From a virus (lineage: Duplodnaviria > Caudoviricetes), in IMG/VR virus record IMGVR_UViG_2848092901_000003, positions 1 to 64,000 of that record: a stretch of DNA of 64,000 nucleotides. One strand, written 5' to 3'. The position numbers and the translations under genes are program-made. Below the pieces are notes generated by a model. The model saw only the letters and a list, made by a program, of their open reading frames with translations, was not told the DNA's origin and did no database searches. Shown piece by piece: positions 139 to 51,560 of this stretch (positions are counted from its first letter, which is position 1; every line of letters begins with the position of its first letter).

Positions 139-552
139 TTAGCATATCATCATTTCAATATAAATCAATTTCACTTTCCCCAGATACGTCTCTTGAAGAA
201 GCTTCAGCGCATCGATGTTATCGCCCTCAATGTAGATATTCTCTGTATCGATGCTACCGGGTGTTCCGTCTCTGCCGACAGACTTCTCCCTGTCAAGGCG
301 CAAGGTCTTAGCAATAGGTTGGTTGGCAAGTACCACCGATTTCTTTTTATCCGGCCATGTGAACTGGTAGCGTTCCTGCGCTCCCTCGACCACAGCCGCA
401 GAGATTTCCTGGCGCAGCACGTCCGCATCAATTGCACGGACAACCTCACCGTCCTCATTTATTGTTTCGGTCACGGCGTTTGGGAACATCGCGGCAAGTT
501 TCCTGAAATTCTCCTCCGCCAGATCGGGTGTATGCATCTTAAGATTCTCCAT
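139..552 (-). pseudogene. mod: Type III R-M Mod methyltransferase, 5' fragment interrupted at IYID(PPY)
   Basis: Mod N-terminus (ERYQFTWPDKK, NIYIEGDNIDALKLLQETYLGKVKLIYI) followed by EMMIC-stop instead of DPPY; very AT-rich unrelated DNA follows. Confidence 0.88.
143..160 (-). other. Putative att-like junction of a further element inserted in mod
   Basis: Minus strand TATTGA|AATGATGATATG; compositional break at 155; an RBS (AAGGAG) at the window edge points to a gene further left. Confidence 0.6.
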
Positions 553-1171
553 GTTTCAAATCCTCCAGTTCCTGTTTATAGCCACGAAGGCGTGTATAAA
601 GTTCAAATTGTTTCTTCGGCTGTTGCTCCTTCCAGGCAGCAGCCTCAGTCTTTGCTATCAGCTTCTCCAGTTTCAGTATTTGCTCCTGTAGAGCAAGGCG
701 TTCATCCACCGAAAGGGAAGCCGATTTTTCAGCCCGCTCATCATAAAGAGCAATCTGTTCCACAAAAGCCTCCCATATCTCATCGAGGGAGAAGCCCTGA
801 GGTTTCAGGCTTATTTCTGAAGCGTCCATCCACTGTGTCCGATAAAGTTTGCTATGATAAAGGGCAAGCTGACGGCTATCCTCGAACATAAGCAGAAAGA
901 CCAGATTGTGAGGATTCTGCTTTGCAATCGCCTCTATTACTTTGCCATCAAACTCCTGCTTCTTTAAAGTTATCGACAGCAACAGTATTTCCTTTATCTC
1001 CGAATCCGTGTTCAGGTTCAGATTATCTTTTGTGAGGCTGTTCTCTATAACAATCCTTTCCACATCGGACACGAACTTGTCCTTCAGCGCTTTTGTCAGT
1101 GGCAGATGCTTGTAGAACGCCTCTTTCGGCAAACGACGGTGAACCGCCGTTGCAGTAGGAAAATCAATCAT
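539..1171 (-). CDS. DUF4391 family protein
   Basis: RRLPKEAFYKH and EAFVEQIAL motifs, coiled-coil C-terminus (KEQQPKKQFELY); lies between SNF2 and mod. Confidence 0.8.
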   Translation of the reverse strand: MIDFPTATAVHRRLPKEAFYKHLPLTKALKDKFVSDVERIVIENSLTKDNLNLNTDSEIKEILLLSITLKKQEFDGKVIEAIAKQNPHNLVFLLMFEDSRQLALYHSKLYRTQWMDASEISLKPQGFSLDEIWEAFVEQIALYDERAEKSASLSVDERLALQEQILKLEKLIAKTEAAAWKEQQPKKQFELYTRLRGYKQELEDLKHGES

Positions 1172-4100
1172 CTCTAATCACCACCATAAAGCATATCAGT
1201 TCAAAATCATCCAATCCTGAAAAACCACCGGACAGAAATGTGGTCTGACCGCCTCTAAAGAAACTGTCAATGTCTCCCTCATCCTTTGCATCAATGATCG
1301 ACATGATAGCATCCTCCAATAGCTGGGAAACCTTGCTCATGTTTTTGCCATTGTTTGTGGCTTTATTGAATTGCTTGCACAACACTTTGTCCGGCACAGC
1401 CTTTCCACGAGAGAGGTGACGCATCACATCGAGTGTATCCTTCGGCTGTAAATGGTTTGTAATAACCTCGCCGTCCATGCCGACGTACACCATATAGAAC
1501 GGATGCAGCCTATTCTGATTCTGAATATTGATGTGTTCGTTAATATTCTTCAGTACGAAAATCACGCCAGGCTTTTCGCCCTTTACTACGGCATGAATTC
1601 CGAATGGTGTGTGATCGATATTTCCATGCTCCTTCATGTAGGCGAGCAGGTCCATACGGAACTCATTCAAGCCTAAATCCATAATGGAAACACCGCTGGT
1701 CATATCTTCCAAGTCAACCACTTCCTCCTGGAGCTTCTTTAACTGGCTGCGGCGATATTCGAGGTCGCCTTTTTCTTCCTGATTGATAAGGTCATCATCG
1801 CCGGTTGAAGTCATAACGGAAATACGCATCCTTGTCTCAACCCTGGACTTGAGGTTGATGTATTCGTCCAAATCCAAATCAGGCCAAAAGTTCACAAGCT
1901 GAATCACAGCATTTCTGCTGCCGATACGGTCGATACGTCCGAATCGCTGAATAATGCGGACGGGATTCCAATGGATATCATAGTTGATGCAAAAATCGCA
2001 GTCCTGCAAGTTTTGTCCTTCCGAAATGCAGTCAGTGGCAATGAGAATATCAATCTCGGTCTTGTCATTCGGATACAGAACGTCTCTATCCTTGGACATC
2101 GGAGAAAAGCAGGAAAGCACGTGGTTCATATCTGCTTTAAACTTCGGAATTGTAGTCTTGCCATCCACCGAGCCGGTCACGAGCGCAGTATGTAAGCCCA
2201 ACTCATCCCTTGCCATACCGCTGATGTTGTCGAAGAGGTACTCGGCGGTATCGGAGAAGGCGGTAAAAATCAACACTTTCCGATTACCTTCGTTAATCGG
2301 GGCAGCCACCTTTTCACGGATAACACGAATGAGTTCGTTTAGCTTGAAATCGTACTCCGGCGTAATATCTTCCACCATGAGTATCAAAAGCTGGAGATTC
2401 TCAATATCCTCGTCAATATCGCGCTTCCACGAGATGTAATCCATATCCCGCAGGTCAATCTTGACTTTCTTTCCCACGCTGAAGAAATCCGTGTTCTGGT
2501 CATCATAGTCAAAATCATCCGCTACAGCAGAGAGATCGCGCATCTCATCAAGGTCTCCCGTGCCGTCCATCATGAACTGTTCGATAGCCTGCGAAGTGTC
2601 ATACAGATAATCATAAATGCGGCGCACGGTCAGAAGAAACGAATGAACAGAACTTTCCATGCGCTTTAAGAGATTAATGCTCATTAAACGCTGGATACCA
2701 AGTTCACGGCCTTTGCGGAAGTTCTCCGATTCCTTCTCGTCCAGATACTTGTGCAGTTTACTGGCATGAATATAAATAGTCGGCGTATATATCGTCAGCT
2801 GCAGTTTCGACAGCAGCTCGAACACTTCTTTGTAATTTATCGCTCCCGGACGGTCAGTCAATTTCGGTCTTAGCGAGATTGGCTTGTTCCTTGCTGGGAA
2901 TGTACCGATATCTGTAACATCATAATAATTCTGTATATGCTTCCTCGATCGAGCAATCGTTACGCTGTCCAGCACCTCGAAGAAGTCAAAATCAAGCTGT
3001 GAAAGTAACGTGGCAGTTGTCCGTTCACTCTCCGGCAATTTGCACCATGCATTATAGACCTTCTGCGCCTGGCGGAAGATGGTATCGATATCTGACTTTG
3101 TATTCAGCTTCTCATTGAATTCGGATGGATCGCCCTCATAGGCAAGCGCCAGCTGGTTACGTAGGTCGTAAAAACGATTGTTTACCGGTGTCGCCGAAAG
3201 CATCAGCACTTTAGTCTTTACACCTGGTTTTATGACTCGGTTCATCAGCCGCATATAGCGATTTTCCTTTTCTCCGCCACGGCTGTCTGTTCCGTTTCCG
3301 TTACGGAAATTGTGGCTCTCATCAATAACGACCAAATCATAATTTCCCCAATTGATACGGTCAATCGGCAGACCAATCACGGTATTGCCGCTGTCTCTGG
3401 AAAGGTCGGTATGATACAGAATGTCATACCGAAGCCTGTCTGCGGCAAGTGGATTGTTAATGAGGTTTCCGCGATAGGTCATCCAGTTCTCTGACAGCTT
3501 TTTCGGGCAGAGAACGAGGACATTCTTATTGCGACCCTCGTAGTATTTGATAACGGCAAGTGCAGTGAAGGTCTTGCCAAGACCAACGCTGTCCGCAAGA
3601 ATACAACCGCTATATTGTTCCAGTTTATTGATAATAGCAAGGGCGGCATCTTTCTGAAAGTTGAACAGCTTGTTCCAAATAACGCTGTCCTTAAAGCCTG
3701 TAGCCTCATTTGGAAGAACATCATCAGAAATATCCTCCAGAAATTCGCTGAAAATGTTGTAGATAGTCATAAAATAGACTAATTCCGGCGCATTTTCCTG
3801 GTAGACTGTGGAGATCATTTCGATGACTTCTTCCGTAACATCGGTCAGTTTATCTTCGTCACTCCAAACGGAATCGAACATTCGTAAGAATTCTGCACTT
3901 GCTGGATTCTCTATGCGGGTAACCATATTTGTCAGATTGTTCCCGCGTTCACAGCCGAGGTCAACAGTCGTGAAAGTGTTCATCGGCATATAGGTATAGG
4001 CGTCCTCCGCTCCGTCCACGAGCAGGAAGTTATTCATTCCTTCGCGGGTAGTGTTAGTCTTAAAACGTACCTTACGGCGCATCCATTCCGCACATTCCTT

Positions 4101-4403
4101 TGCAACGGCCTTCTGCTTAAGTTCATTACGCAGACGGACCTCAAATTCTGTACCATACAGGCTCTTTTCTCTTTTGAGACGGGGAATATAAAATTCACGA
4201 CGTTCCTTCTGCGTTTTCTCCGCAACAAAAGTCGGCGAAGTGAATATGAATCGCAGTTCCTTGCAATCCTCAAGCTGACTCTTCAATTCCTGGTATGCAT
4301 ATATCGAAAAGCAAGCTGCCGCTATAGAGATACGACTGCCTTGCCGTATAGTTTTTTCAAGATCGTCCTTGACTACTTTAGTGGTGTTATTAAAAATCTC
4401 CAC
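1164..4403 (-). CDS. SNF2-family helicase with N-terminal PLD-like domain
   Basis: DSVGLGKT Walker A, VVIDESH, SATP, EGQNLQ and QRFGRIDRIG motifs; GTG start at 4403 chosen from the GGAGG RBS. Confidence 0.88.
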   Translation of the reverse strand: MEIFNNTTKVVKDDLEKTIRQGSRISIAAACFSIYAYQELKSQLEDCKELRFIFTSPTFVAEKTQKERREFYIPRLKREKSLYGTEFEVRLRNELKQKAVAKECAEWMRRKVRFKTNTTREGMNNFLLVDGAEDAYTYMPMNTFTTVDLGCERGNNLTNMVTRIENPASAEFLRMFDSVWSDEDKLTDVTEEVIEMISTVYQENAPELVYFMTIYNIFSEFLEDISDDVLPNEATGFKDSVIWNKLFNFQKDAALAIINKLEQYSGCILADSVGLGKTFTALAVIKYYEGRNKNVLVLCPKKLSENWMTYRGNLINNPLAADRLRYDILYHTDLSRDSGNTVIGLPIDRINWGNYDLVVIDESHNFRNGNGTDSRGGEKENRYMRLMNRVIKPGVKTKVLMLSATPVNNRFYDLRNQLALAYEGDPSEFNEKLNTKSDIDTIFRQAQKVYNAWCKLPESERTTATLLSQLDFDFFEVLDSVTIARSRKHIQNYYDVTDIGTFPARNKPISLRPKLTDRPGAINYKEVFELLSKLQLTIYTPTIYIHASKLHKYLDEKESENFRKGRELGIQRLMSINLLKRMESSVHSFLLTVRRIYDYLYDTSQAIEQFMMDGTGDLDEMRDLSAVADDFDYDDQNTDFFSVGKKVKIDLRDMDYISWKRDIDEDIENLQLLILMVEDITPEYDFKLNELIRVIREKVAAPINEGNRKVLIFTAFSDTAEYLFDNISGMARDELGLHTALVTGSVDGKTTIPKFKADMNHVLSCFSPMSKDRDVLYPNDKTEIDILIATDCISEGQNLQDCDFCINYDIHWNPVRIIQRFGRIDRIGSRNAVIQLVNFWPDLDLDEYINLKSRVETRMRISVMTSTGDDDLINQEEKGDLEYRRSQLKKLQEEVVDLEDMTSGVSIMDLGLNEFRMDLLAYMKEHGNIDHTPFGIHAVVKGEKPGVIFVLKNINEHINIQNQNRLHPFYMVYVGMDGEVITNHLQPKDTLDVMRHLSRGKAVPDKVLCKQFNKATNNGKNMSKVSQLLEDAIMSIIDAKDEGDIDSFFRGGQTTFLSGGFSGLDDFELICFMVVIRDD

Positions 4404-4427
4404 AAGCGCACCCTCCTCCAACGGCTG

Positions 4428-4649
4428 TTACTCTTCAACCGCCTTATCATCATCAATAAATTCCATGATGTCACCGACATCACATTTGAGTGCGCCGCAT
4501 ATACGCAGCAACACATCCGTATTCACATTTCCGCCTTTTCCAAGTTTGGCAACAGAAGTGGCACTGATACCACTCATCTCCCGTAGAGTCTTTTTATTTA
4601 TTCCACGGTCAATAAGAAGTTTGAAAAGTTTGTTGTAGCTAAAACGCAT
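4428..4649 (-). CDS. XRE/Cro-C1-type HTH regulator
   Basis: SYNKLFKLLIDRGINKKTLREMSGISATSVAKLGKGGNVNTDVLLRICGAL pattern; GGAGG RBS 8 nt upstream. Confidence 0.85.
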   Translation of the reverse strand: MRFSYNKLFKLLIDRGINKKTLREMSGISATSVAKLGKGGNVNTDVLLRICGALKCDVGDIMEFIDDDKAVEE

Positions 4650-4689
4650 CTGCATTACCTCCGTGATTTCTTTCTATATTCTACATTAA

Positions 4690-6516
4690 TTACTTCACAT
4701 CATTTAGGAATCCATATCGTGTTCCCGGAATCAATCCTTTGCCGAAGGTTTCAACGACCGCACCATGCTTCTCATATTCAAGGGAAGGGATATGGTCAAG
4801 GTTCTCGATAATAATAAGCTGACCCTCATCCTGATGATTCATGAAGTAGCGGTAAAGCCCAGCTCTCATGCTATCCGGCATCCTGTCATCCACTCCATCA
4901 TCAAAGCCATGAAGTGGAGTATCAATGATAAAGATGTGAGGATCGAATTTAGCGTTTAGCGCCAGATATTTCCGTAGCATCATAATCATCACTGTATTAA
5001 GGTAAGAACGATAACCTTTACCGTGGCTCGTTCCTTTATCCTCACCATTTACCTCAATATCAAATGTTGTAAAATTAAAGTGCGCCTGAAGTAAACCGGA
5101 ATAATTGCATTCCTTAAGAATGGAATTGGCATATTCAGACATCGTGGTGGCAAAATCATCCCCAAAGTAGTCCTTGGGATGATACTCTAAAGTCTTATCA
5201 TTTTTCTGCTCGTTTTCTAAAGCAGTCAGATCGTTTCCAAAGTCCGTGGCATAGGCTTCAATCAATGCAATCTCACTGGCAATTCGGAGATATGCCTTGT
5301 AAGCATTGACTGTGTTTTGTTGCTCACTTTCCTGGGGACGTAGTTCTGTTTTAATTTTAGATTCGAGAGCATCACGCTGCCGCTTTAACTCGACAAGTTC
5401 GGCCCTGATTTCTTTCTTACGATCCTCGACATCTCTCTCCGTATCCTCAAGGCCGGAAAGTTGGGCCATCGTCCGCTCCATCTCTACTTTGGACGCAGCA
5501 ATATAGGATATCCGCTTACGAGGAGTAATCGTTCCTTCGCAGTATGGACATTTGGTGGCTTGTGGAACTTCCTGATAGGCTTCTTCGCCCTCGACAATGA
5601 GAGAAAGCCGTTGAATATCAGCTTTATACTGCGCAGCAAGTCTGTGGTATCTCGTCAAAAGAACATCGCACTCCGCAGCTCGTTCCTCTGCTTCCAGAAT
5701 GGAAGAGAGGATTTTTTGGCTCTCTGCAAGGGCACAGTCGATTTTTCTCTGTGTTTCCTGTAGGGCAGCAGTCGCTTGAGCTATCTGCGCTTCGACATCT
5801 GCGTCATCAAAAATATGCAAATCTTGTTCAAGCTGCTCCTTGCGTTCCGCAGCATCCCGGATTTTCCGATTGACATACTCGGCTACAGCCTTTCGGCGCG
5901 CTTTCTTTATTTCCTTTTTCTCTTGGGCATCTGTCTCTGTAAAAGTCCTGCCGGTAATTAGATACAAAAGTGCCGACAAAAACAGCGTATTCTCCATGTA
6001 ACGATGTTTTGGTTCTACGATAGAGTCGATATCATCAATCCGGTTTTCATCCAAATAAAATACACGCAGCAAATTGCGCCAGGTGAGTCGCTTCTTTTCA
6101 AACCTTGCGTTCGTTATAATCATGGTTTCTTGTTCAATGCCAATGAGCTTCAGCCATACTTCGTTCAGAGGCGGATTCTTAGCTCCCTTTCGGTAATTGA
6201 CATCATAGGTACCACTGTCTATACCGTCTATGGTGCTGGTCACCTCTACCTGATTCTTTCCCACATTTCTATGAAGAGCGACTTCGCCATCACGGTCATT
6301 TGATTCGACAATCATGGTCACGCCGTCATATTTTGCCGTTTCCTTAAACGGCTTGTCCACGGAGCCACCGAAGATAAAGTCAATACAATTCGCCACGCAG
6401 GTCTTTCCACTGTCAGAGCGTCCCTGTATGATGGTCAGTCCTTTACCGAAGGAAACGCTGGCATCGCCCTTGGTGGCGCTTTTCGCTATAACTTTTTTGA
6501 TGTAAAATCCTGCCAT
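4690..6516 (-). CDS. lmuB: SMC/Rad50-like ABC ATPase (Lamassu LmuB-like / ABC-three-component ATPase)
   Basis: Walker A GRSDSGKT, long coiled coil with CPYC hook, SHGKG signature, IFIIDTP Walker B. Confidence 0.8.
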   Translation of the reverse strand: MAGFYIKKVIAKSATKGDASVSFGKGLTIIQGRSDSGKTCVANCIDFIFGGSVDKPFKETAKYDGVTMIVESNDRDGEVALHRNVGKNQVEVTSTIDGIDSGTYDVNYRKGAKNPPLNEVWLKLIGIEQETMIITNARFEKKRLTWRNLLRVFYLDENRIDDIDSIVEPKHRYMENTLFLSALLYLITGRTFTETDAQEKKEIKKARRKAVAEYVNRKIRDAAERKEQLEQDLHIFDDADVEAQIAQATAALQETQRKIDCALAESQKILSSILEAEERAAECDVLLTRYHRLAAQYKADIQRLSLIVEGEEAYQEVPQATKCPYCEGTITPRKRISYIAASKVEMERTMAQLSGLEDTERDVEDRKKEIRAELVELKRQRDALESKIKTELRPQESEQQNTVNAYKAYLRIASEIALIEAYATDFGNDLTALENEQKNDKTLEYHPKDYFGDDFATTMSEYANSILKECNYSGLLQAHFNFTTFDIEVNGEDKGTSHGKGYRSYLNTVMIMMLRKYLALNAKFDPHIFIIDTPLHGFDDGVDDRMPDSMRAGLYRYFMNHQDEGQLIIIENLDHIPSLEYEKHGAVVETFGKGLIPGTRYGFLNDVK

Positions 6517-6520
6517 TGCG

Positions 6521-6970
6521 TTACCTCCTTAAAGATTTCGTTGACTGTCGACTGATTTCGTTGAACAACTGGACATCGCTATAGTTCCCATACTTCTCAA
6601 TCACAAGCCGCATCAGCTCTTTATACCGCTTGGCATATTCTGATTGGAAACCCTCACTCATGTTTCTTCCACTTTCCGAAACAGAATAAAGGATACCTGT
6701 TTCATCATCCGTGGCTATAACCAGTCCATCAACTACCAGATTCTTTATTGCAGTTTTTGTAAGGCTCCGCCTTGCGGATAGTTCGCTAAATGCAAAGCCA
6801 TTCTCCCCATTTAAAGACTTATCCGCAACACCGAAATCCTCACAGTAAATCGTTATGAAATCATAAGCGGTAATTCTGTCGAGTGTAATTTCGGCATTCG
6901 CCACATCAAGAAGAAGTACCACGTGGAGAGACAGTTCAAAGGGGGTATTGAAAAGTCTGTTATTCATCAA
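6521..6970 (-). CDS. lmuC: ABC-three-component middle component (LmuC-like)
   Basis: FNTPFELSLHV and LDRITAYDFITIY motifs, about 150 aa, directly upstream of the ATPase. Confidence 0.72.
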   Translation of the reverse strand: MMNNRLFNTPFELSLHVVLLLDVANAEITLDRITAYDFITIYCEDFGVADKSLNGENGFAFSELSARRSLTKTAIKNLVVDGLVIATDDETGILYSVSESGRNMSEGFQSEYAKRYKELMRLVIEKYGNYSDVQLFNEISRQSTKSLRR

Positions 6971-7937: not shown

Positions 7938-7956
7938 GTTGACACCCTCCTTTCCA

Positions 7957-8379: not shown

Positions 8380-8384
8380 TTTTT

Positions 8385-8897: not shown

Positions 8898-8902
8898 AAA
8901 TC

Positions 8903-41819: not shown

Positions 41820-41829
41820 GGAGGCTGGC

Positions 41830-42408: not shown

Positions 42409-44879
42409 ACCGGGACTATCTAAAAGGAAGGCGGTGCATGGTCTGGTCGTTCATGCAGAACGCTCGGATGTACGAGGCTTTGCGGGACTATGGCGACCGG
42501 CTGGATACGGTGGGGATTTTTACTTTTGAGGTGGATGCCACCGGGACGCTCTCGGAAACTGGCACAAGCATTTCCTCCATGATGACCTACATCAACAAGT
42601 GGCCGCACATTCACTGGATGCTGACCGTGATGAACCACGGGACAGCCAGTATTTTCACGGCTCTGCGCAATAACACAAACGGAGCAAAAGATAAGTTTTT
42701 AACCGAGCTGGTGCGCATCATGGAAAAATACCCGTGGTGTGCCGGAGTGGACATTGATTTGGAGCGCGGCGGCGGATATGAGAACCGGGAAGCGGCAAAC
42801 TCCTTATTTCAGGCTATTTATCAGACGGTCAAAGCCTATGATTCCTCCAAACTCGTCAATATCTGCCTGCCCGGCATGACCGGCGTTCAGGGCAGTGTGG
42901 GCGGTGAAAACTGGTGCGTCTATGCCGACCTCAACCCGTACTGCGACACGGCTTCTATTATGTCTTACGGCATGGCGTGGGCAGGCAGCGCCCCCGGCCC
43001 CGTATCTCCCCGGAGCTGGTTGGAGGGCATTTACGATTACGCGGTCACGGCGATGTCCCCGGAAAAGATTTTCATGGGCCTGCCGGGATACGGCTGGAAC
43101 TGGCAGATATACGACACCCCAGAGAACTTGGGCGAAACTTACCGAGGGATTTCCAACACCTACTATGCCGCCAAGCTCTGGATGACTGGCGGCTACAACT
43201 TTACCGGGGATGCGCCGCCCCAGCCCATGATCCCCATTATTGCCTATTGGGACGATGTAGATATGGTGCCGTGGGCGCTTCCGCAGGTATATGACTACAT
43301 GGAAGGATGGGATGCTTCCTCAGTAACTTCGCCCCTGCAGCAGGAAGTCTATAACCGCAGGCGGTATCTGACCTGTTACGGGAAGGAGCAAAAGACCTCC
43401 TTCGGCACAATCTACATTGACCGTGGCGGCGGCACACCGGATTCCTACACCGGGCTTGCCACTGTGTCCGATTACATGACGGTTCTCGGTGAGGGCGCGA
43501 CAGCAACCTTTCATTTTACGATTGAGCAGGCTGGCGCCTATGACATAGCGGTACGGCTTGCTTTTCCTTTTTGGGATAAAAACGCGCTGAATGTGGCTGT
43601 GGACGGAAGCTCAAAGACCTTTTCGGAGAGCCGCCTGTGGTGGCCATACTGGCGGCGCACCTGCTGGCTTTCCTTTGCTTCCGGCAGGAACCTCTCCGCA
43701 GGCAGCCATACGCTTACGATCAGCGGCGGCGTTCCCGGTGTACAGTTTTACGGTTTCCGGGTATGCAGCAGCTTTTCTGAGGAACCGTCTGCCGGAGAGG
43801 CGGCGTTTACCCTCTCACCCCGGCAGTTTCTGGATGTGAACGGCGATCCGGCCACACCGGACAAGGGCTTTAAGCTCACCTGTGAAATGCTCCGGCGAAA
43901 ACCGGATTCGGCGCTGGTATGGTATGAGGACTTCCGGGATGATACCCCTCTGCCGGACAGCTACTGGACGACGCTCTCCGGGGAATGGTCGGTGTGGAGG
44001 GAAAGCTACACCACCGAGAACCGGCCATATTCCTTGCTGGAAGGCTCCGGCAAGCTGGCATGGAAATATGATGGATTCTCCGACCTGCATATCCGGGCGC
44101 GGGTGGGTTTTCCACAGAATGGCGGCGGACGGGCCGGGGTATTCCTTGGAAACCTGTTCTGCTGCTTAAACTACGATACTCAGCGGGTGGAGCTATACCA
44201 AGGCTCCACGCTTTTGGGGAGCTACTCCACCAGCTTTTCCAAGACCCCGGATGCGCAGCTCCACAGCGATCCGACCGTCTATACCATTGAGATGCGAAAG
44301 CGTGGAAATAGAGTCCGGGTGTATTCCGGTTCCAGCTACACCCTGCGGTTTACCGCAACGGTGAGCGCTACCTCCGGCTATGCGGGGATACAGGCGGACA
44401 ATGAGATCGTCTGCGACCTGCTGCGGGCCGGTGATGCCTGGTCTTATGAACCCTATGAGTGTTTTGACGTGGTGTATCCGGACGGGGTGCGCACCAGCTT
44501 CGGGAGGATTGCCCGCTCTGGCGTGACGTGGGACGAGGAATTTCAGATTTTCTCAGTGAACAGCGACGTGGATGAAGGTTCCACCCGCAGCGAGGATATT
44601 TCCCTCGACTATGATTTCTTTCACTCCCACCTGCTGGAAATTTCCTGCGGGAATGATTACACAGCCAAGGTGATCCCACGGGATATAAACGTCTGGACTG
44701 CCCGGCTGTTCTTGGGCGATGCGGACGGCTTTTCGATTCTTTACTATCAGGACGTGGATTCGCTGGTATATTGGGCCAACGAGGCTGCTTACCGGTGGGG
44801 CCTGCGCGGCATTGCAATCTGGTCTTTAGGACAGGAGGATATGCGGCTGTGGGAGGTCATGCCGAAACAAATAGAATAA
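42405..44879 (+). CDS. GH18 glycoside hydrolase with inserted beta-sandwich domains
   Basis: GVDIDLE (DxDxE), SIMSYG, KIFMGLPGYG, GIAIWSLGQED. Confidence 0.85.
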   Translation: MNRDYLKGRRCMVWSFMQNARMYEALRDYGDRLDTVGIFTFEVDATGTLSETGTSISSMMTYINKWPHIHWMLTVMNHGTASIFTALRNNTNGAKDKFLTELVRIMEKYPWCAGVDIDLERGGGYENREAANSLFQAIYQTVKAYDSSKLVNICLPGMTGVQGSVGGENWCVYADLNPYCDTASIMSYGMAWAGSAPGPVSPRSWLEGIYDYAVTAMSPEKIFMGLPGYGWNWQIYDTPENLGETYRGISNTYYAAKLWMTGGYNFTGDAPPQPMIPIIAYWDDVDMVPWALPQVYDYMEGWDASSVTSPLQQEVYNRRRYLTCYGKEQKTSFGTIYIDRGGGTPDSYTGLATVSDYMTVLGEGATATFHFTIEQAGAYDIAVRLAFPFWDKNALNVAVDGSSKTFSESRLWWPYWRRTCWLSFASGRNLSAGSHTLTISGGVPGVQFYGFRVCSSFSEEPSAGEAAFTLSPRQFLDVNGDPATPDKGFKLTCEMLRRKPDSALVWYEDFRDDTPLPDSYWTTLSGEWSVWRESYTTENRPYSLLEGSGKLAWKYDGFSDLHIRARVGFPQNGGGRAGVFLGNLFCCLNYDTQRVELYQGSTLLGSYSTSFSKTPDAQLHSDPTVYTIEMRKRGNRVRVYSGSSYTLRFTATVSATSGYAGIQADNEIVCDLLRAGDAWSYEPYECFDVVYPDGVRTSFGRIARSGVTWDEEFQIFSVNSDVDEGSTRSEDISLDYDFFHSHLLEISCGNDYTAKVIPRDINVWTARLFLGDADGFSILYYQDVDSLVYWANEAAYRWGLRGIAIWSLGQEDMRLWEVMPKQIE

Positions 44880-44892
44880 ATCATGGGAACTG

Positions 44893-44922
44893 GCGACTGT
44901 CCTGCGGGGCGGCCGCTTTTTT
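44893..44922 (+). terminator. Possible intrinsic terminator between tail and lysis genes
   Basis: Imperfect GC stem followed by T6. Confidence 0.45.
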
Positions 44923-44959
44923 CATACACAAAATCATTTCAGGAAACGGAGGTATCAAC

Positions 44960-45382
44960 ATGAAAGAACTTTGGAACACGGCGCAGGTGATCTTTGCGGC
45001 AATCGGAGGATGGCTGGGCTACTTCCTGGGCGGCTGCGACGGGCTGCTCATCGCCCTAGTGGTGTTCGTGGCGGTGGACTATCTCACTGGCGTGATATGC
45101 GCTGTCTCGGACAAGAAGTTGTCCAGCGAGGTGGGTTTTAAGGGCATCTGCCGGAAGGTGCTGATCTTTCTGCTGGTGGGGATCGCCAACATCGTGGATG
45201 TACAGGTTATCGGCACAGGCTCGGTGCTTCGCACGGCGGTCATTTTCTTTTATCTCTCCAACGAGGGCGTGAGCCTGCTGGAGAACGCGGCGCACCTGGG
45301 GCTTCCCGTGCCGGAAAAGATGAAGGACATCCTGGCGCAGCTCCATGACCGGGCGGAAAATACAGAAAGCGAGGGAAAATAA
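44960..45382 (+). CDS. Holin (toxin secretion/phage lysis family)
   Basis: GGWLGYFLGG, VDYLTGV, FYLSNEGVSLLENAAHLGLPVP. Confidence 0.92.
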   Translation: MKELWNTAQVIFAAIGGWLGYFLGGCDGLLIALVVFVAVDYLTGVICAVSDKKLSSEVGFKGICRKVLIFLLVGIANIVDVQVIGTGSVLRTAVIFFYLSNEGVSLLENAAHLGLPVPEKMKDILAQLHDRAENTESEGK

Positions 45383-45384
45383 CT

Positions 45385-46356
45385 ATGGCTTACACAAACA
45401 GTTCACTGGTATCTTACACAAAACTCAGCCCGAACCACTCCGGGGAGAGGACGCACTCCATCGACCGCATCACGCCCCACTGTGTGGTAGGACAATGCTC
45501 TGTGGAAACACTGGGGAATATCTTCCTGCCGGTTTCCAAACAGGCAAGCTGCAACTATGGTATCGGCGAGGACGGCAGAATCGGAATGTATGTAGAGGAA
45601 AAGAACCGCTCCTGGTGTTCCTCTTCCAATGCAAACGACCAGAGGGCGGTCACCATTGAGTGCGCGTCCGATACGACCGAGCCGTATGCCTTCAAGGATG
45701 TGGTCTACCAAAAGCTGATCACGCTCTGCGCGGATATCTGCAAGCGAAACGGCAAGAAAAAGCTCCTGTGGCTGGGAGACAAGGACAAGACGCTCTCTTA
45801 TGAGCCAAAATCGGATGAGATGGTTCTGACCGTCCACCGCTGGTTTGCCAACAAGTCCTGTCCGGGAAACTGGATGTATGCCCGGATGGGCGATCTTGCG
45901 GAAAAGGTCACGGCGCAGCTTGGCGGCGGGATATCCGGGAACACAGAGACGGAGCATCCCGAAAAGCTGACAGAGGGCTATTACCGTGTCCGCAAGACAT
46001 GGGCGGACAGTAAGACGCAGAAAGGCGCTTACAAGATTCTCTCTAACGCCAAGAGGTGCGCCGACAGCAACCCAGGCTACAGCGTGTTTGACGATAACGG
46101 GGTCAATATCTACTCGCCGGGCGGGCCTGCTTCTGCGCCGTCCGAAGATGTGCCATTTCTTGTCCAGGTCAGCATTTCTGACCTGAATATCCGCAAAGGG
46201 CCGGGAACGGACTATGCCAAGACCGGTAAGTTTACAGGAAAAGGCGTATTTACCATCATGGAGGTCAAATCCGGGCAGGGTTCCACGGCTGGCTGGGGCC
46301 GGCTGAAATCCGGCGCGGGATGGATCTCGCTTGACTACGCAGCCAAAATCAAATAA
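45385..46356 (+). CDS. Endolysin: Amidase_2 plus SH3-like cell-wall binding domain
   Basis: ITPHCVVG, TIECAS, HRWFANKSCPG; C-terminal LNIRKGPGT..GWISLDY. Confidence 0.9.
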   Translation: MAYTNSSLVSYTKLSPNHSGERTHSIDRITPHCVVGQCSVETLGNIFLPVSKQASCNYGIGEDGRIGMYVEEKNRSWCSSSNANDQRAVTIECASDTTEPYAFKDVVYQKLITLCADICKRNGKKKLLWLGDKDKTLSYEPKSDEMVLTVHRWFANKSCPGNWMYARMGDLAEKVTAQLGGGISGNTETEHPEKLTEGYYRVRKTWADSKTQKGAYKILSNAKRCADSNPGYSVFDDNGVNIYSPGGPASAPSEDVPFLVQVSISDLNIRKGPGTDYAKTGKFTGKGVFTIMEVKSGQGSTAGWGRLKSGAGWISLDYAAKIK

Positions 46357-46371
46357 CTTAACCTGCTGAAA

Positions 46372-46410
46372 GCCCATCGAGCCATAACGGTTCGGTGGGC
46401 GTATTTTTTT
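46372..46410 (+). terminator. Intrinsic terminator after the lysin
   Basis: GCCCATCGAGCC-N5-GGTTCGGTGGGC followed by T7. Confidence 0.8.
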
Positions 46411-46443
46411 CGGCCAAAATAGGCTTCTATGTCCAGATGGGTC
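46408..46443 (+). promoter_or_regulatory. Bipartite motif TTTCGGCCAA-N13-GTCCAGATGGGTC, copy 2
   Basis: Identical boxes and spacing to 8903-8938. Confidence 0.7.
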
Positions 46444-46476
46444 ATTGAGGGAAACCCTCGGAACGGAGGAACCACA

Positions 46477-46899
46477 ATGACAAATCAGCAAAAAGAACAG
46501 ATTACCGCCCTGCGCTCACAGGGATATGGATACGCCACCATCGCCAAGGCGGTGGGACTGAAGAAAGATACCGTTGTCGCGTTCTGCCGTAAGATGGGAA
46601 TGACCGGCACGAAGGCTGCAGATAACAGACGCATTGAACTGGACGCCGGATTCTGCCTGCAGTGCGGCGCTTTGCTTACGCAGACTCCCGGAAGAAAGCG
46701 AGTCAAGTTCTGCTCGGATAACTGCCGTACCGCCTGGTGGAATGCACACCCGGAAAAGGTCAACCGCAGAGCCATATACCACTTCACCTGCGCTCACTGC
46801 GGAAAGCCCTTCACTGCCTACGGCAACGCAAAAAGAAAATACTGCTCTCACGCCTGCTATATCGCAGACCGCTACAAAGGCGGTGACGGGCATGAGTGA
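46477..46899 (+). CDS. HTH plus Zn-finger protein of the recombination module
   Basis: GYGYATIAKAVGLKKDTV HTH; CLQCG, FCSDNC, CAHCG, YCSHAC. Confidence 0.75.
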   Translation: MTNQQKEQITALRSQGYGYATIAKAVGLKKDTVVAFCRKMGMTGTKAADNRRIELDAGFCLQCGALLTQTPGRKRVKFCSDNCRTAWWNAHPEKVNRRAIYHFTCAHCGKPFTAYGNAKRKYCSHACYIADRYKGGDGHE

Positions 46900-47068
46900 G
46901 GATAAATTCCGCTCTGAAATGAGCTACCTTGCCGCCCTTTCCATCGCAAAGAATCTCAGGGAAAAGGGGCTTCTGAGCGAGGAGGAATATGCCGTAATTG
47001 ATACAAATCTGCGGGCCGAGTTCTCGCCGTCTTTGGGTACATTATTATCGGAAAACGACTTGATATAA
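46892..47068 (+). CDS. SHOCT-like small protein
   Basis: LREKGLLSEEEY motif. Confidence 0.65.
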   Translation: MSEDKFRSEMSYLAALSIAKNLREKGLLSEEEYAVIDTNLRAEFSPSLGTLLSENDLI

Positions 47069-47111
47069 TTGGCTTTCAGAGTGATATATAGTGTCGGAAA
47101 GGAGTGATTTC

Positions 47112-48878
47112 ATGCGGATTGTAAATAAAATCGAAGCGAAAACACCGCAGATGCCGCGCCGCAAAAGGGTCGCTGCCTACGCAAGAGTCTCAATGGAGTC
47201 CGAGCGGCTGCAGCACTCCCTTTCGGCACAGGTCAGCTTTTACAGCAGTTTGATACAGAGCAACCCCGCCTGGGAATATGTGGGCGTATACGCCGACAAC
47301 GGAATAACCGGCACCAAAGCCGAAGCCCGCGAAGAGTTCAATCGGATGATTGCCGACTGCGAAGCCGGAAAAATCGACATTGTTCTGACAAAGAGTATCT
47401 CCCGTTTCGCGCGCAACACCGTTGACCTGTTGAATACAGTGCGCAGGCTCAAGGAACTGGGCGTTTCCGTGCAATTTGAAAAGGAGCGCATCGACTCCCT
47501 CACCGAGGACGGTGAGTTGATGCTGACCCTTTTAGCATCCTTTGCCCAGGAGGAGATACGCAGCCTGTCGGACAACGTCAAATGGGGTACCCGGAAACGA
47601 TTTGAAAAAGGTATTCCCAATGGTCGCTTTCAAATCTACGGGTACCGCTGGGAGGGCGATCATCTGGTTGTCCATGAGGAGGAGGCAAAGATCGTTCGGC
47701 TCATCTACGACAATTACATGAATGGTTTATCAGCGGAAACCACAGAGAAGCAGCTTGCCGAGATGGGTGTGAAATCCTATAAGGGCCAGCACTTCGGCAA
47801 TACCTCTATCAGACAGATCCTCGGCAACATCACTTATACGGGCAACCTTCTGTTCCAGAAGGAATATGTGCAGGACCCCATCAGCAAGAAAAGCAAAATT
47901 AACCGTGGGGAGCTGCCGCAGTATTTCGTGAAGAACACCCACGAAGCCATCATCCCGATGGAGGTCTACCAGGCGGTGCAGACCGAGAAAGCGCGCCGCC
48001 GGGAGCTTGGGGCTTTGGCAAACTGGAGCATCAATACCTCCTGCTTTACCAGCAAAATCAAGTGCGGTCGGTGCGGAAAGAGCTATCAGCGCTCCAACCG
48101 CAAGGGACGAAAAGATCCTGACGCTAACTACACCATCTGGGTCTGCGGGACTCGAAGAAAAACCGGGAATGCCAAGTGCCAAAACAAGGACATCCCAGAA
48201 CAGATACTCAAGGAAGCCTGCGCTGTGGTCATGGGACTGGATACGTTTGATGAGATCATCTTTTCAGAGCAGATCGACCGCATTGAGATCCCTGCTCCGA
48301 ATGAGATGATTTTCTATTTTAAGGATGGCCACATTGTACCGCACCACTGGGAATCCACCATGCGGAAGGACTGCTGGACGGATGAGCGCAGAGCCGCCAA
48401 GGGACGGTATGTGCAGGAGCATCAGCTCGGCCCCAACACTTCCTGCTTTACCAGCCGCATTCGCTGCGACAGCTGCGGCGAGAACTACCGCAGGCAGCGT
48501 TCACGGCACAAAGATGGCAGCTTTGATTCCGTATGGCGATGTGCGTCAGGCGGAAAATGCCAAAGCCCCAGCATCAAGGAAGATGCCCTCAAAAACCTCT
48601 GTGCGGACGCTATGGGTCTGGAGGAATTTAGTGAGACGGTTTTCCGTGAGCAGATTGTCTGCATTCACATCACGGCTCCATATCAGCTTTCCATCCGCTT
48701 CTTTGACGGGCATACCTTCGAGACGGCATGGGAAAACAAGCGGAAGATGCCCCGGCATACAGAGGAGCGAAAACAGCATATGCGAGAAGTAATGATACAG
48801 AGATGGAGGGAAAAACGTGGCGAAAGTAACGACAATACCGGCGACGATAAGCCGATTCACGGCAACGCCGATCAATGA
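47112..48878 (+). CDS. Large serine recombinase 1 with duplicated Zn-ribbon module
   Basis: AAYARVS, KSISRFARN, NITYTGNLLFQK, HEAII; two NTSCFTSxIxC repeats. Confidence 0.93.
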   Translation: MRIVNKIEAKTPQMPRRKRVAAYARVSMESERLQHSLSAQVSFYSSLIQSNPAWEYVGVYADNGITGTKAEAREEFNRMIADCEAGKIDIVLTKSISRFARNTVDLLNTVRRLKELGVSVQFEKERIDSLTEDGELMLTLLASFAQEEIRSLSDNVKWGTRKRFEKGIPNGRFQIYGYRWEGDHLVVHEEEAKIVRLIYDNYMNGLSAETTEKQLAEMGVKSYKGQHFGNTSIRQILGNITYTGNLLFQKEYVQDPISKKSKINRGELPQYFVKNTHEAIIPMEVYQAVQTEKARRRELGALANWSINTSCFTSKIKCGRCGKSYQRSNRKGRKDPDANYTIWVCGTRRKTGNAKCQNKDIPEQILKEACAVVMGLDTFDEIIFSEQIDRIEIPAPNEMIFYFKDGHIVPHHWESTMRKDCWTDERRAAKGRYVQEHQLGPNTSCFTSRIRCDSCGENYRRQRSRHKDGSFDSVWRCASGGKCQSPSIKEDALKNLCADAMGLEEFSETVFREQIVCIHITAPYQLSIRFFDGHTFETAWENKRKMPRHTEERKQHMREVMIQRWREKRGESNDNTGDDKPIHGNADQ

Positions 48879-50388
48879 AAAGAAAAAGCGCCGCACCGCC
48901 GCCTACGCCCGTGTTTCCACGGACAGCGAGGAGCAGCTCACCAGCTACAGCGCCCAGGTGGACTATTACACCAACTATATCAAAAGCCGGGACGATTGGG
49001 AGTTTGTTTCCGTGTATACGGACGAGGGCATAACGGGTACGAATACCAAGCACCGCGAGGGATTCAAACGCATGGTGGCGGATGCACTGGCTGGCAAGAT
49101 AGACCTCATCGTCACCAAATCGGTCAGCCGCTTTGCCCGAAATACGGTAGACAGCCTGACCACGGTGCGCCAGCTCAAGGAAAAAGGCGTGGAGATCTAT
49201 TTTGAGAAAGAAAACATCTGGACCTTGGACAGCAAGGGCGAACTGCTCATCACCATCATGTCCTCACTGGCGCAGGAGGAAAGCCGCAGCATTTCAGAGA
49301 ACTGTACCTGGGGACAGAGAAAACGGTTTGCTGACGGGAAGGTCACCGTGCCATTCAAACGGTTTCTCGGCTATGATCGGGGACCCGATGGCAATCTGGT
49401 TTTGAATAAGGACGAAGCGGTTATCATCCGCCGCATTTACAGTATGTTCCTGCAAGGCATGACGCCGCACGGCATTGCCGCCAGGCTAACCGCTGACGGC
49501 ATTAAATCGCCGGGCGGCAAGGATAAATGGAACGCCGGAGCGGTTCGGAGTATCCTCACTAACGAAAAATATAAGGGTGATGCACTTCTTCAGAAAAGCT
49601 ATACGGTTGATTTCCTCACCAAAAAGAAAAAGGTCAACGAGGGCGAAATTCCGCAGTATTATGTGGAGGGCAACCACGAAGCCATCATTTCCCCAGAGGT
49701 ATTCGAGATGGTTCAGCAGGAAATGGAACGGCGCAGCAAGCGCGGTAGACGAAGCGGTGTCCACCTTTTCTCCGGCAAAATTCGCTGTGGCGAATGCGGA
49801 AGCTGGTACGGCTCCAAAACCTGGCACTCCAATGATAAGTACAAAAAGATCATCTGGCAGTGCAATCACAAATTTGATGGCGACCACAAATGCACCACAC
49901 CACACCTTACAAATGAAGATATCCACCGCTACTTTATTTCGGCAGTCAACCAGCTTCTTGCCCAGAAGGATACCATCATCGCATCCTTGACCGGCGGCTT
50001 GGCCCTTGCCTTTGACCTCACGCCTCTGCAAGCCCAAGAAACTGCACTGATTGAGGAAGTACAGATGCTTGCCGATGCGGTTGAAAAGTGCATCTACGAA
50101 AATGCTCATGTGGCCCTTGACCAGACAGAATACCAGAAACGCTATGACGGACTGGTCCACCGCTACGATGAAGCTAAAGTCAAACTGGGTGCCATCACCG
50201 AGCAGATCGCCGATAAAAAGGCACGGAGAGGCACTATTGAGGAGTTCCTCAAGGTTCTCCGGGAGCAGGACGGACTGGTCACCGATTTTCAAACAAACCT
50301 CTGGTGCGGACTGGTGGATTTTATGACCGTCTACTCCGCAGACGATGTGCGGATCACCTTCAAAAACGGTGCGGAAATAAAGGCATAA
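48817..50388 (+). CDS. Large serine recombinase 2
   Basis: AAYARVSTD, KSVSRFARN, NEKYKGDALLQK, CGECG, WQCNHK. Confidence 0.95.
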   Translation: MAKVTTIPATISRFTATPINEKKKRRTAAYARVSTDSEEQLTSYSAQVDYYTNYIKSRDDWEFVSVYTDEGITGTNTKHREGFKRMVADALAGKIDLIVTKSVSRFARNTVDSLTTVRQLKEKGVEIYFEKENIWTLDSKGELLITIMSSLAQEESRSISENCTWGQRKRFADGKVTVPFKRFLGYDRGPDGNLVLNKDEAVIIRRIYSMFLQGMTPHGIAARLTADGIKSPGGKDKWNAGAVRSILTNEKYKGDALLQKSYTVDFLTKKKKVNEGEIPQYYVEGNHEAIISPEVFEMVQQEMERRSKRGRRSGVHLFSGKIRCGECGSWYGSKTWHSNDKYKKIIWQCNHKFDGDHKCTTPHLTNEDIHRYFISAVNQLLAQKDTIIASLTGGLALAFDLTPLQAQETALIEEVQMLADAVEKCIYENAHVALDQTEYQKRYDGLVHRYDEAKVKLGAITEQIADKKARRGTIEEFLKVLREQDGLVTDFQTNLWCGLVDFMTVYSADDVRITFKNGAEIKA

Positions 50389-51442: not shown

Positions 51443-51471
51443 AAAATAGCCGGGATGCCCCGGTCTGTCAA
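51443..51471 (-). promoter_or_regulatory. Possible SigA promoter of abiH
   Basis: TTGACA (51471-51466), 17 bp spacer, TATTTT. Confidence 0.45.
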
Positions 51472-51523
51472 CACACCCCAAGAGCAGATTTTACACCGCA
51501 AGGGCACACTTTTTAATTTTACC

Positions 51524-51560
51524 CATACCTTGTATCAAACTCGGTATGATTATTTCTAAA
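51524..51560. other. Prophage right attachment junction
   Basis: Host frame NILE breaks after GA (51556-51555); adjacent CATACC-N13-GGTATG inverted repeat (51524-51548). Confidence 0.7.

What the first reader, a model, noticed from the sequence alone, without database searches (positions are those of the whole stretch)
143..51560. Two DNA-methylase genes are broken at a GA dinucleotide by near-identical element ends
Seen on the minus strand: ICE gene TTTTAGA|AATAATCATA (51556-51555) and mod TATTGA|AATGATGATA (156-155). The first 10 foreign bases match at 8/10 with the same polarity. Both breaks fall on the acidic codon of a conserved hydrophobic-strand-D/E-P methylase motif (ILE-PS motif I; IYID-PP motif IV). 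Established: large serine recombinases exchange strands at a 2-bp core and can target conserved genes. Inference: related recombinases home into methylase motifs and knock out rival elements' methylation or restriction functions.
Basis: partly seen in the sequence, partly recalled or inferred. Interest (0 to 1): 0.8.

Follow-up and report, generated by a model that had tools for sequence, protein, structure and literature searches.

The report
Phage integrase that targets methylase motifs
A gut-type prophage inside a conjugative element of Clostridioides difficile was inserted by a serine recombinase that crosses over at the GA of the Asp/Glu codon in the conserved (D/E)-P motif of DNA methylase genes. 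The second broken methylase is the phage's own gene, cut at the same kind of site but joined to a scrap of a resistance cluster, not to a second element.

Summary

- **Break 1.** This is the attL of a Heliusvirales-like prophage with two large serine recombinases. attP, attB, attL and attR were all recovered, and they place the crossover on GA.
- **Family survey.** For this exact phage arm, 19 of 28 distinct left junctions and 13 of 14 right junctions lie at the (D/E)P of methylase motif I or IV. Targets include HsdM, type III Mod, a BREX PglX-like gene and ICE SNF2-methylases.
- **Break 2.** There is no second element end here. The mod is the prophage's own cargo gene. After the GA come 8 nt of unknown origin. 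Next is a 3.07-kb fragment of an aminoglycoside-resistance cluster, then a 186-aa gene, then a sister-lineage P arm that abuts the 3' half of the same ICE gene.
- **Was break 2 recombinase-made?** The own-mod site is the best pseudo-attB in the phage, so a recombinase-made cut is likely (about 0.7). The history is unresolved.

Serine-integrase targeting of methylase genes is already shown for Tn1806-like ICEs. This is a phage variant with a different crossover.

The parts
51557..55168 (-). 5' part (codons 1-1204) of the ICE SNF2/COG4646-type methylase-helicase gene. It acts as the B arm of attL. The called ORF 51491-55168 adds a 20-residue phage-encoded tail.
   Evidence: 99.955% identity to the intact 2909-aa gene in L002 up to window 51554; homologues listed.
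51555..51556 (-). GA crossover dinucleotide: the first two bases of the Glu1205 codon in ILE|PS (motif I).
   Evidence: It is the only sequence shared by attP (L227), attB (L002), attL (window) and attR (L005).
51528..51554 (-). P' arm of the prophage attachment site. It starts AATAATCATA and carries the distal motif TTTGATACAA.
   Evidence: Identical arm next to 28 different host flanks. It is contiguous with the P arm in the attP of viral contig L227.
50457..51413 (-). AbiH-family abortive-infection gene, carried as cargo between the recombinases and the P' arm.
   Evidence: Pfam PF14253, E 5.9e-50. It always travels with the two recombinases, whatever the flank.
47091..50388 (+). Two overlapping large serine recombinase genes (595 aa at 47091-48878; 523 aa at 48817-50388).
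   Evidence: Both have Resolvase + Recombinase + Zn_ribbon_recom domains and YARVS catalytic serine motifs. The closest solved domain is a C. difficile conjugative-transposon recombinase, 3g13.
8100..47090 (+). Core of the prophage (GC about 0.56). Genes include DUF2800 nuclease, family A DNA polymerase, VapE primase-helicase, SNF2, ParB-MTase, C5-MTase, terminase, portal, capsid, tail and lysis genes.
   Evidence: Pfam; composition; 90.6% nt identity to Acutalibacteraceae phage NatCom_11578, Ca. Heliusvirales.
539..7988 (-). Defence cargo of the prophage: ABC-3C system (CTD6, MC2, AAA_23 ATPase), SNF2 helicase and DUF4391. These genes lie upstream of the phage's type III-like mod-res.
   Evidence: Pfam. 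The same block is attached to the same phage gene in all relatives, followed by intact mod (664 aa) and res (1025 aa).
157..552 (-). 5' part (codons 1-132) of the phage's own N6_N4-type mod gene. The called ORF is 139-552, 137 aa.
   Evidence: 100% identical to the intact gene of L004 up to window 155.
155..156 (-). GA of the Asp133 codon in IYID|PPY (motif IV). The break point of mod.
   Evidence: The intact site scores 18.3 on the attB matrix, against 18.8 for the real ICE site and 9.5 for the next best of 13,090 GA sites.
147..154 (-). Eight bases (AATGATGA) of unknown origin. They resemble the start of a P' arm (6/8 on their own; 8/10 when the next TA is counted).
   Evidence: Not shared with any relative of either flank. 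No exact matches in three collections.
1..146 (-). Start of a 3069-bp AT-rich block (GC 0.25): the 3' end of a truncated GNAT gene and the leader of an aph(2'')-If/Ih-family gene. That gene begins just outside the window.
   Evidence: 99.8% identity to L023 5855-8923, an IME-like context with Mob_Pre relaxase and tyrosine integrase. NCBIfam NF000498 scores 630 bits against a cut-off of 600.

Best explanation
The window holds one composite prophage of the gut lineage Ca. Heliusvirales inside a Tn5252/CTn-type conjugative element of Clostridioides difficile (DSM 27638-like).

How it integrated. Its large serine recombinase(s) bind an imperfectly palindromic attP of about 55 bp. The site has the form TTGTATCAAA-N15-GA-N15-TTTGATACAA. 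The enzyme exchanges strands at the non-palindromic GA. The attB is DNA that encodes 'hydrophobic strand-(D/E)-P' of DNA methyltransferases. The GA is the first two bases of the Asp/Glu codon and is followed by the Pro codon. This fits both motif I ((D/E)PxxGxG) and motif IV (DPPY). Here the phage landed in motif I of the ICE's SNF2-methylase gene. Because GA is asymmetric, the phage always lies in one orientation relative to the target gene: the recombinase end follows the gene's 5' half.

The second broken methylase. It is the phage's own cargo mod, part of a type III-like helicase-DUF4391-mod-res system. Its DPPY site is the best pseudo-attB in the phage genome. In this C. difficile lineage it was cut at that GA. 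Everything from there to the phage's P end (mod 3' half, res, P arm) was replaced by a 3.9-kb mosaic made of four pieces:
1. 8 nt of arm-like sequence.
2. A 3.07-kb fragment of an IME resistance cluster (truncated GNAT, aph(2''), AAA_33 kinase, DUF1016), joined on its right inside a SEC-C motif.
3. A 186-aa gene.
4. The 237-bp terminal module and P arm of a sister phage lineage, which abuts the ICE gene's 3' half at GA.

What is shown and what is inferred. Shown: all junction positions, the attP, the target spectrum and the origin of each segment. Inferred: that the recombinase itself made the cut in mod (about 0.7), the order of events, and any benefit of disabling methylases.
For: - **Empty sites.** Empty-site alignments fix both breaks.
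- **Intact attP.** A viral contig (L227) carries P arm-GA-P' arm as one contiguous site.
- **attR.** In CP011846 the ICE 3' half resumes right after a P arm plus GA.
- **Target spectrum, left junctions.** The exact P' arm sits next to 28 distinct flanks. Of these, 19 are methylase sites: 5 ICE motif I, 8 HsdM (Pfam HsdM_N + N6_Mtase) and 6 Mod IYID.
- **Target spectrum, right junctions.** Of 14 distinct P-side flanks, 13 read (D/E)PxxGxG or DPPYNTG. One lies in an Eco57I-type gene next to PglZ.
- **Relatives.** Recombinase relatives at 67-82% identity have diverged arms but the same kind of site. Ten contigs with the sister P arm show the same.
- **Direct precedent in mod.** In L013 the very same phage arm is joined to IYI-GA of a host DUF4391-type mod, the position homologous to the break in the phage's own mod.
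- **Matrix score.** The own-mod site scores 18.3, against 9.5 for the next best of 13,090 GA sites.
- **Arm-like bases after the GA.** An 8/10 match occurs at only 8 of 8567 GA sites.
- **The defence block is phage cargo.**
- **Origin of the mosaic.**
Against: - **No P'-type arm at the mod junction.** After 8-10 nt the sequence is the interior of a GNAT gene that continues upstream in all 12 relatives. The distal TTTGATACAA motif is absent.
- **The sister lineage's own P' arm does not fit.** It starts TATAAAAA and does not match the 8 nt.
- **Not all edges are recombinase-made.** The right edge of the resistance block is a short-homology join inside a SEC-C motif.
- **A microhomology exists.** TGAT is shared by mod and the GNAT gene at the break, so an illegitimate join is possible.
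- **No intermediate found.** No form was found in any collection.
- **Targeting is not exclusive.** About a third of left junctions are not in recognisable methylase genes (YkoF antisense, MerR, others).
- **Untested points.** Which of the two recombinases acts is unknown, and no activity was measured.
Confidence: 0.75

Rival explanations
1. One reading: two separate, related elements, each with its own serine recombinase, inserted independently into two methylase genes. Window 155-1 would then be the end (P' arm) of the second element.
For: - The break lies at the GA of DPPY, a proven target position for this family.
- The next ten bases match 8/10.
- The far end of the replaced segment is a genuine P arm of a sister lineage.
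Against: - Only 8-10 nt are arm-like. From window 146 the DNA is the inside of a truncated GNAT gene of an IME resistance cluster.
- The 3.9 kb between the two GA holds no recombinase.
- The 3' half of mod and res are absent. The P arm abuts the ICE gene, not mod.
- The natural partner arm of the sister lineage differs from the 8 nt.
Confidence: 0.12
2. The mod junction has nothing to do with the recombinase. A single illegitimate or homology-facilitated recombination replaced the phage's P-end cargo with foreign DNA. It was anchored in the SEC-C motif on one side and at a TGAT microhomology with an 8-nt filler on the other. Its position at DPPY would be coincidence.
For: - The right edge of the resistance block is a short-homology join in a SEC-C motif.
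- TGAT is present in both parents at the left join.
- Filler bases are typical of illegitimate joins.
- No P'-type arm is present.
Against: - The break coincides to the base with the single best pseudo-attB among 13,090 GA sites.
- The following bases match the arm at a level seen at about 1 in 1000 GA sites.
- If the two coincidences are independent, their joint chance is roughly 1e-6.
Confidence: 0.22
3. Assembly chimera: the junctions come from joining unrelated contigs at short AT-rich overlaps.
For: - There are three compositional zones (GC 0.37, 0.56, 0.45).
- The contig ends 155 nt past the mod break.
Against: - The same structure is in the complete PacBio genome CP011846.1 (PMC5749029).
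- A 151-kb isolate contig spans the stretch.
- It appears in 14 isolate runs from 8 studies.
- The same phage arm sits next to 28 flanks.
Confidence: 0.01

Closest known systems
Tn1806-like ICEs of streptococci (triple serine integrases), PMC12942858
   Same: Serine-integrase elements that integrate into several different methyltransferase genes: the snf2 methylase-helicase of ICEs, hsdM and an Eco57I-type MTase. This was shown by conjugation. They nest inside ICEs and split the target gene in two.
   Different: They are conjugative elements, not phages. They have three integrases, not two. The reported flanking repeat is 4 bp (TGGG/GGGA), not GA at the D/E codon. A TGGG lies a few bases downstream of the GA in the intact ICE gene, so both may use motif I, but this was not tested. 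Motif IV (DPPY) targets and self-targeting are not reported.
TndX of Tn5397 and TnpX of Tn4451/3 (clostridial large serine recombinases), PMC4430133 and PMC3672683
   Same: Crossover with 2-bp staggered cuts at a GA dinucleotide. TndX prefers DNA that encodes a conserved protein domain (Fic), which is the same logic of homing to domain-coding DNA.
   Different: The target domain differs. These enzymes sit on transposons, not phages. Sequence relation is only at family level (the TnpX fragment scores E 6.8e-8).
IME_SNF2 of Streptococcus suis, PMC7168690
   Same: Serine-recombinase elements integrated in the SNF2/COG4646 methylase-helicase gene of Tn5252-family ICEs. This is the same gene family as the target at 51557-55168.
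   Different: They are mobilizable elements with a single target gene. Their exact position within the gene was not compared here.
Multi-targeting large serine recombinases (Durrant et al., PMC10083194)
   Same: One recombinase uses many genomic sites that share a short degenerate motif around a fixed core dinucleotide.
   Different: That work does not mention methyltransferase targets (0 occurrences of the word). Here the degenerate motif coincides with a protein motif.
Gene-splitting prophages with serine integrases (SPbeta SprA in spsM; 'active lysogeny')
   Same: The prophage splits a host gene, and excision can restore it.
   Different: Those have a single fixed target gene. Here the target is a motif shared by a whole enzyme superfamily.

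Membership tests
Large serine recombinase (phage-type serine integrase) | N-terminal resolvase catalytic domain with a serine nucleophile | tested here: met
   PF00239 at E 6e-32 and 6e-34. YARVS is present in both proteins.
Large serine recombinase (phage-type serine integrase) | Recombinase domain plus zinc-ribbon domain C-terminal to the catalytic domain | tested here: met
   PF07508 and PF13408 are present in both proteins.
Large serine recombinase (phage-type serine integrase) | attP is an imperfect palindrome around a 2-bp core, and only the core is shared between attP and attB (no longer target duplication) | tested here: met
   attP in L227. The bases next to GA vary on both sides across 28 + 14 junctions.
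Large serine recombinase (phage-type serine integrase) | Catalyses attP x attB recombination | not testable with these tools
   Only the products (attL, attR) and substrates (attP, attB) are seen in sequence data.
GA-core clostridial recombinases (TnpX/TndX group) | Crossover at a GA dinucleotide | tested here: met
GA-core clostridial recombinases (TnpX/TndX group) | Close sequence relationship to TnpX or TndX | tested here: inconclusive
   Only a TnpX N-terminal fragment is in the PDB (E 6.8e-8). The best hit is a C. difficile transposon recombinase domain, 3g13 (E 7e-46). No TndX sequence was at hand.
Methyltransferase-gene-targeting serine-integrase elements (Tn1806-like) | Integrates into snf2, hsdM or Eco57I-type methyltransferase genes | tested here: met
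Methyltransferase-gene-targeting serine-integrase elements (Tn1806-like) | Conjugative element with three serine integrases and a TGGG/GGGA flanking repeat | tested here: not met
   This is a tailed-phage genome with two recombinases, and its crossover is GA.
Ca. Heliusvirales phages | Nucleotide or gene-content relationship to classified members | tested here: met
   90.6% identity over 6.1 kb to NatCom_11578, with the same end architecture. The order's marker-gene set was not scored.
End of an integrated serine-recombinase element (claimed for window 155-1) | Break at the core dinucleotide of a target-type site | tested here: met
   GA of IYID|PPY.
End of an integrated serine-recombinase element (claimed for window 155-1) | A full P'-type arm (about 25 bp, including the distal motif) next to the core | tested here: not met
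   Only 8-10 nt are arm-like. From window 146 the DNA is GNAT gene interior.
End of an integrated serine-recombinase element (claimed for window 155-1) | A recombinase gene in the inserted DNA, and the other end abutting the rest of the target gene | tested here: not met
   The 3.9 kb holds no recombinase. The mod 3' half and res are absent, and the far end abuts the ICE gene.

The most novel reading that the evidence does not exclude
A widespread lineage of human-gut temperate phages has serine integrases tuned to the DNA that encodes the (D/E)-P of methyltransferase motifs I and IV. Lysogeny would then switch off host type I, type III, type IIG/BREX and ICE-borne methylase systems. In these systems, loss of the methylase also abolishes restriction, so the insertion is safe for the host. 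The phage meanwhile installs its own defence cargo. The same specificity would let the phage ride on ICEs into distant hosts such as C. difficile, and would occasionally make it cut its own methylase gene.
Probability: 0.4. Interest if true: 0.75.

Novelty: new variant of a known kind. Interest (0 to 1): 0.6.

Why it matters
- **Specificity.** One recombinase specificity can be explained by a protein motif rather than by a gene. A single phage gets landing sites in almost any Firmicute genome or mobile element.
- **Host defence.** Each integration predictably inactivates a restriction or BREX system, and excision could reverse this. That is a testable link between lysogeny and host defence in the gut microbiome.
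- **A high-GC phage in C. difficile.** It explains how a high-GC gut phage came to sit in a conjugative transposon of an epidemic RT027 strain. There the prophage also carries an aph(2'')-family gene.
- **Engineering.** The attP and attB pairs defined here are ready-made substrates for a multi-targeting integrase.

The general idea is not new: Tn1806-like ICEs and IME_SNF2 already show it for conjugative and mobilizable elements.

Tried and rejected
- **Short repeats as prophage ends.** I considered an 11-mer at 155-165 and 8110-8120 and a 10-mer at about 8152 and 50449. Both lie inside DNA that all relatives share, and the real ends are elsewhere.
- **Exact-match scans for the DNA right after the mod GA.** The 21-24-mers gave 0 hits in viral, metagenome and genome collections.
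- **A candidate arm starting AATGATGAT in L158.** It lies inside a conserved ORF and is not a junction.
- **The 8 nt as a remnant of the sister lineage's P' arm.** The natural partner arm in provirus G002 starts TATAAAAA, which matches only 4/8.
- **Other contexts for the APH and 186-aa proteins.** Exact-protein look-ups returned only the same C. difficile composite.
- **Homologues of the 186-aa gene in viral contigs.** They are not next to a P arm.
- **Read laying.** No alternative joints were seen. The metagenome runs show only the intact-mod form, and part of the stretch was uncovered in them.
- **ICE gene 3' half within the window.** The 1085-aa SNF2 ORF at 1164-4421 is phage cargo, not the ICE gene.

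Full report
**What the window is.** The window is the first 64 kb of an 82-kb virus record. It is 100% identical, where compared, to Clostridioides difficile DSM 27638 (RT027, CP011846.1) around 3.78-3.84 Mb. The genome paper lists that region as a strain-specific prophage 'P6' lying in a conjugative transposon (PMC5749029).

There are three compositional zones.
- 51.6-64 kb, GC 0.37: conjugative-element genes (VirB4/TraG-like ATPase, CHAP hydrolase, CD1107-like protein, topoisomerase, KilA-N) and a giant methylase-helicase gene.
- 8.1-50.4 kb, GC 0.56: a tailed-phage genome that ends in two large serine recombinase genes.
- 1-8 kb, GC 0.45: defence genes, namely an ABC-3C system, an SNF2 helicase, DUF4391 and a truncated mod.

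**Break 1, in the ICE gene.** An intact 2909-aa homologue from another C. difficile genome (L002) matches the contig at 99.955% over 6615 nt, up to window 51554. The intact gene reads GNILE|PSMGIGNF, the AdoMet-binding motif I. The window continues with phage DNA that starts AATAATCATA. The 3' half of the gene is not in the contig. In CP011846 it resumes 3.9 kb beyond the window's left end, directly after a phage arm plus GA (L005 12907 = L002 6608).

**The attachment sites.**
- The AbiH gene and the two recombinases always travel together. The DNA beyond the arm differs between contigs.
- Aligning these junctions shows the same arm after GA every time, while the base before GA varies.
- On the other side, phages with an intact mod-res end in an arm of the form ...TTGTATCAAA-N15-GA. 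The base after GA varies.
- The two arms are inverted repeats of each other.
- A viral contig (L227) carries the uninterrupted attP, with P arm, GA and P' arm contiguous.

With attP, attB, attL and attR all in hand, the exchange is confined to the GA at 51556-51555, codon 1205.

**What the recombinase targets.**

| Junction set | Distinct flanks | At methylase motif I or IV |
|---|---|---|
| Exact P' arm (left junctions) | 28 | 19: 5 ICE methylase-helicase (GN(I/V)L-E), 8 HsdM (Pfam HsdM_N + N6_Mtase, break before DP), 6 beta-class Mod (IYI-D) |
| P side (right junctions) | 14 | 13: 9 (D/E)PxxGxG and 4 DPPYNTG, in genes with N6_Mtase, N6_N4_Mtase or Eco57I domains; one is next to PglZ (BREX-like) |
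| Relatives at 67-82% recombinase identity, diverged arms | 13 | 11 by motif only (not Pfam-tested) |
| Contigs with the sister P arm | 10 | at least 5 clear motif I |

The nine other left junctions include YkoF antisense, MerR and unknown genes. The specificity is therefore strong but not absolute. It follows a DNA pattern (T-rich positions before GA, then NCC..C.T......GG) that coincides with the protein motif.

**Break 2, in mod.** The defence block at 539-7988 is attached to the same phage early gene in every relative. It is followed there by an intact 664-aa mod and a 1025-aa type III res, then by the P arm. The classified phage NatCom_11578 has the same layout. The broken mod is therefore the phage's own cargo. 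L004 is 100% identical to the window's copy for 9017 nt up to window 155, then reads IYID|PPYNTG. Metagenome contigs show the same intact continuation.

**What follows that GA is a mosaic, not an element end.**
1. Eight bases (AATGATGA) have no relative anywhere.
2. From window 146 (L005 9026) to L005 12094, a 3069-bp block with GC 0.25 is 99.8% identical to part of an IME-like region in a Clostridia MAG (L023). That region carries a Mob_Pre relaxase and a tyrosine integrase.
   - The block begins inside a GNAT acetyltransferase gene, and all twelve relatives continue upstream with GNAT coding sequence.
   - It carries an APH(2'')-If/Ih-family gene (630 bits against a cut-off of 600), an AAA_33/zeta-like kinase and a DUF1016/YhcG nuclease.
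   - Its right edge lies inside a SEC-C motif. That motif is fused in frame to the SEC-C motif that normally starts the next gene, which is 186 aa.
3. The last 237 bp are the terminal module and P arm of a sister phage lineage (92-97% identity in nine of ten viral contigs). That lineage's recombinase is 68% identical, and its natural partner arm starts TATAAAAA.
4. There is no recombinase, no distal arm motif and no mod 3' half in this DNA.

**Did the recombinase make the cut in mod?** I think probably, at about 0.7.

For:
- On a position matrix built from the observed sites, the phage's intact own-mod site scores 18.3 and the real ICE site 18.8. The next best of 13,090 GA positions in the contig plus L004 scores 9.5. 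That third site is motif I of the phage's own ParB-MTase at about 22223.
- In L013 the very same phage is integrated at the homologous IYI-GA of a host DUF4391-type mod.
- The 8/10 arm-like match after the GA is seen at about 1 in 1000 GA sites.
- A break at that base followed by those bases is very unlikely by chance.

Against:
- The partner is not a proper arm.
- The other edge of the resistance block is an ordinary short-homology join.
- A TGAT microhomology with filler could account for the left join.

Several multi-step histories fit the data. One is a deletion between the own-mod pseudo-attB and an arm-like pseudo-site upstream of a resistance block acquired earlier. Another is a sister phage integrated in mod and then mostly deleted. 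None can be chosen with the data found.

**Mechanism and consequences.** Shown: the phage integrates by a GA crossover in a fixed orientation and splits the target gene into a 5' fragment with a short phage-encoded tail and a start-less 3' fragment. From established knowledge: type I HsdM, type III Mod, fused type IIG enzymes and BREX PglX are each needed for restriction as well as for modification. Insertion there therefore disarms the system without exposing the host to its own nuclease. Inferred, not tested: that this is why the specificity is kept, as opposed to methylase motifs simply being ubiquitous landing pads, as was suggested for TndX and Fic domains. The phage brings AbiH, ABC-3C and its own type III-like system, which amounts to a replacement of defences. 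An identical AbiH-recombinase module sits in host flanks of GC 0.30-0.535. This suggests a very wide distribution, possibly helped by riding on ICEs.

**Comparison with what is known.**
- GA crossovers are established for TndX and TnpX, and TndX prefers Fic-domain-coding DNA (PMC4430133, PMC3672683).
- Serine-recombinase IMEs sit in the SNF2/COG4646 methylase gene of Tn5252-type ICEs (PMC7168690).
- Most relevant, Tn1806-like ICEs with three serine integrases were shown by conjugation to integrate into snf2, hsdM and an Eco57I-type methylase gene of one recipient, with a TGGG/GGGA repeat (PMC12942858).
- The Heliusvirales papers and the survey of multi-targeting recombinases do not mention methylase targets.

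The principle is therefore known for conjugative elements. What is new here is a widespread phage lineage, a crossover on the acidic codon, the use of motif IV as well as motif I, BREX-type targets, and the apparent self-cut.

**Verdict.** This is a new variant of a known kind, with interest 0.6.

Noticed in passing
L005:9172-10065 (starts one base left of window position 1): An APH(2'')-If/Ih-family aminoglycoside phosphotransferase gene (NCBIfam 630 bits, cut-off 600) lies inside the prophage of an RT027 C. difficile lineage. It came in as a fragment of an IME resistance cluster. The upstream GNAT gene is truncated.
   Followed up: partly
L010-L017 flanks; window 8100-51554: The same phage module (identical AbiH protein, GC 0.54) sits in host flanks with GC from 0.30 to 0.535. 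It is a high-GC Oscillospiraceae/Acutalibacteraceae-type phage inside low-GC C. difficile. Arrival on or via an ICE is possible.
   Followed up: no
window 4690-7988: Pfam assigns the three-gene operon to the ABC-3C system (CTD6, MC2, AAA_23 ATPase). Another first-stage note on this window reads it as Lamassu-like.
   Followed up: partly
L220:6251-9078: One integration of the phage is in a 930-aa Eco57I-type methylase gene directly upstream of a PglZ gene. This is a BREX-like system split at DPCMGSG.
   Followed up: partly
L005:12080-12110: The resistance block is joined to the next gene inside a SEC-C motif (CGSGKKYK). The C-terminal SEC-C of the DUF1016/YhcG protein is fused in frame to the N-terminal SEC-C of the 186-aa gene. 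This is a recombination at a short conserved coding motif.
   Followed up: partly
window about 22223 (inside 21177-22430): The third-best pseudo-attB in the contig is motif I (VLDPFGGSG) of the phage's own ParB-fused N6/N4 methylase. It scores 9.5, well below the own-mod site.
   Followed up: no
one search hit list (P0005-P0046): Many C. difficile copies of the ICE methylase-helicase protein are 2196-2450 aa instead of about 2905 aa. This suggests other recurrent truncations or insertions further downstream in the same gene.
   Followed up: no
L233 record (G002) 68817-69863: In a provirus with the sister P arm, another large serine recombinase gene (37% identity) lies in the host flank just beyond the split HsdM gene. 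This hints at stacked recombinase elements at methylase loci.
   Followed up: no
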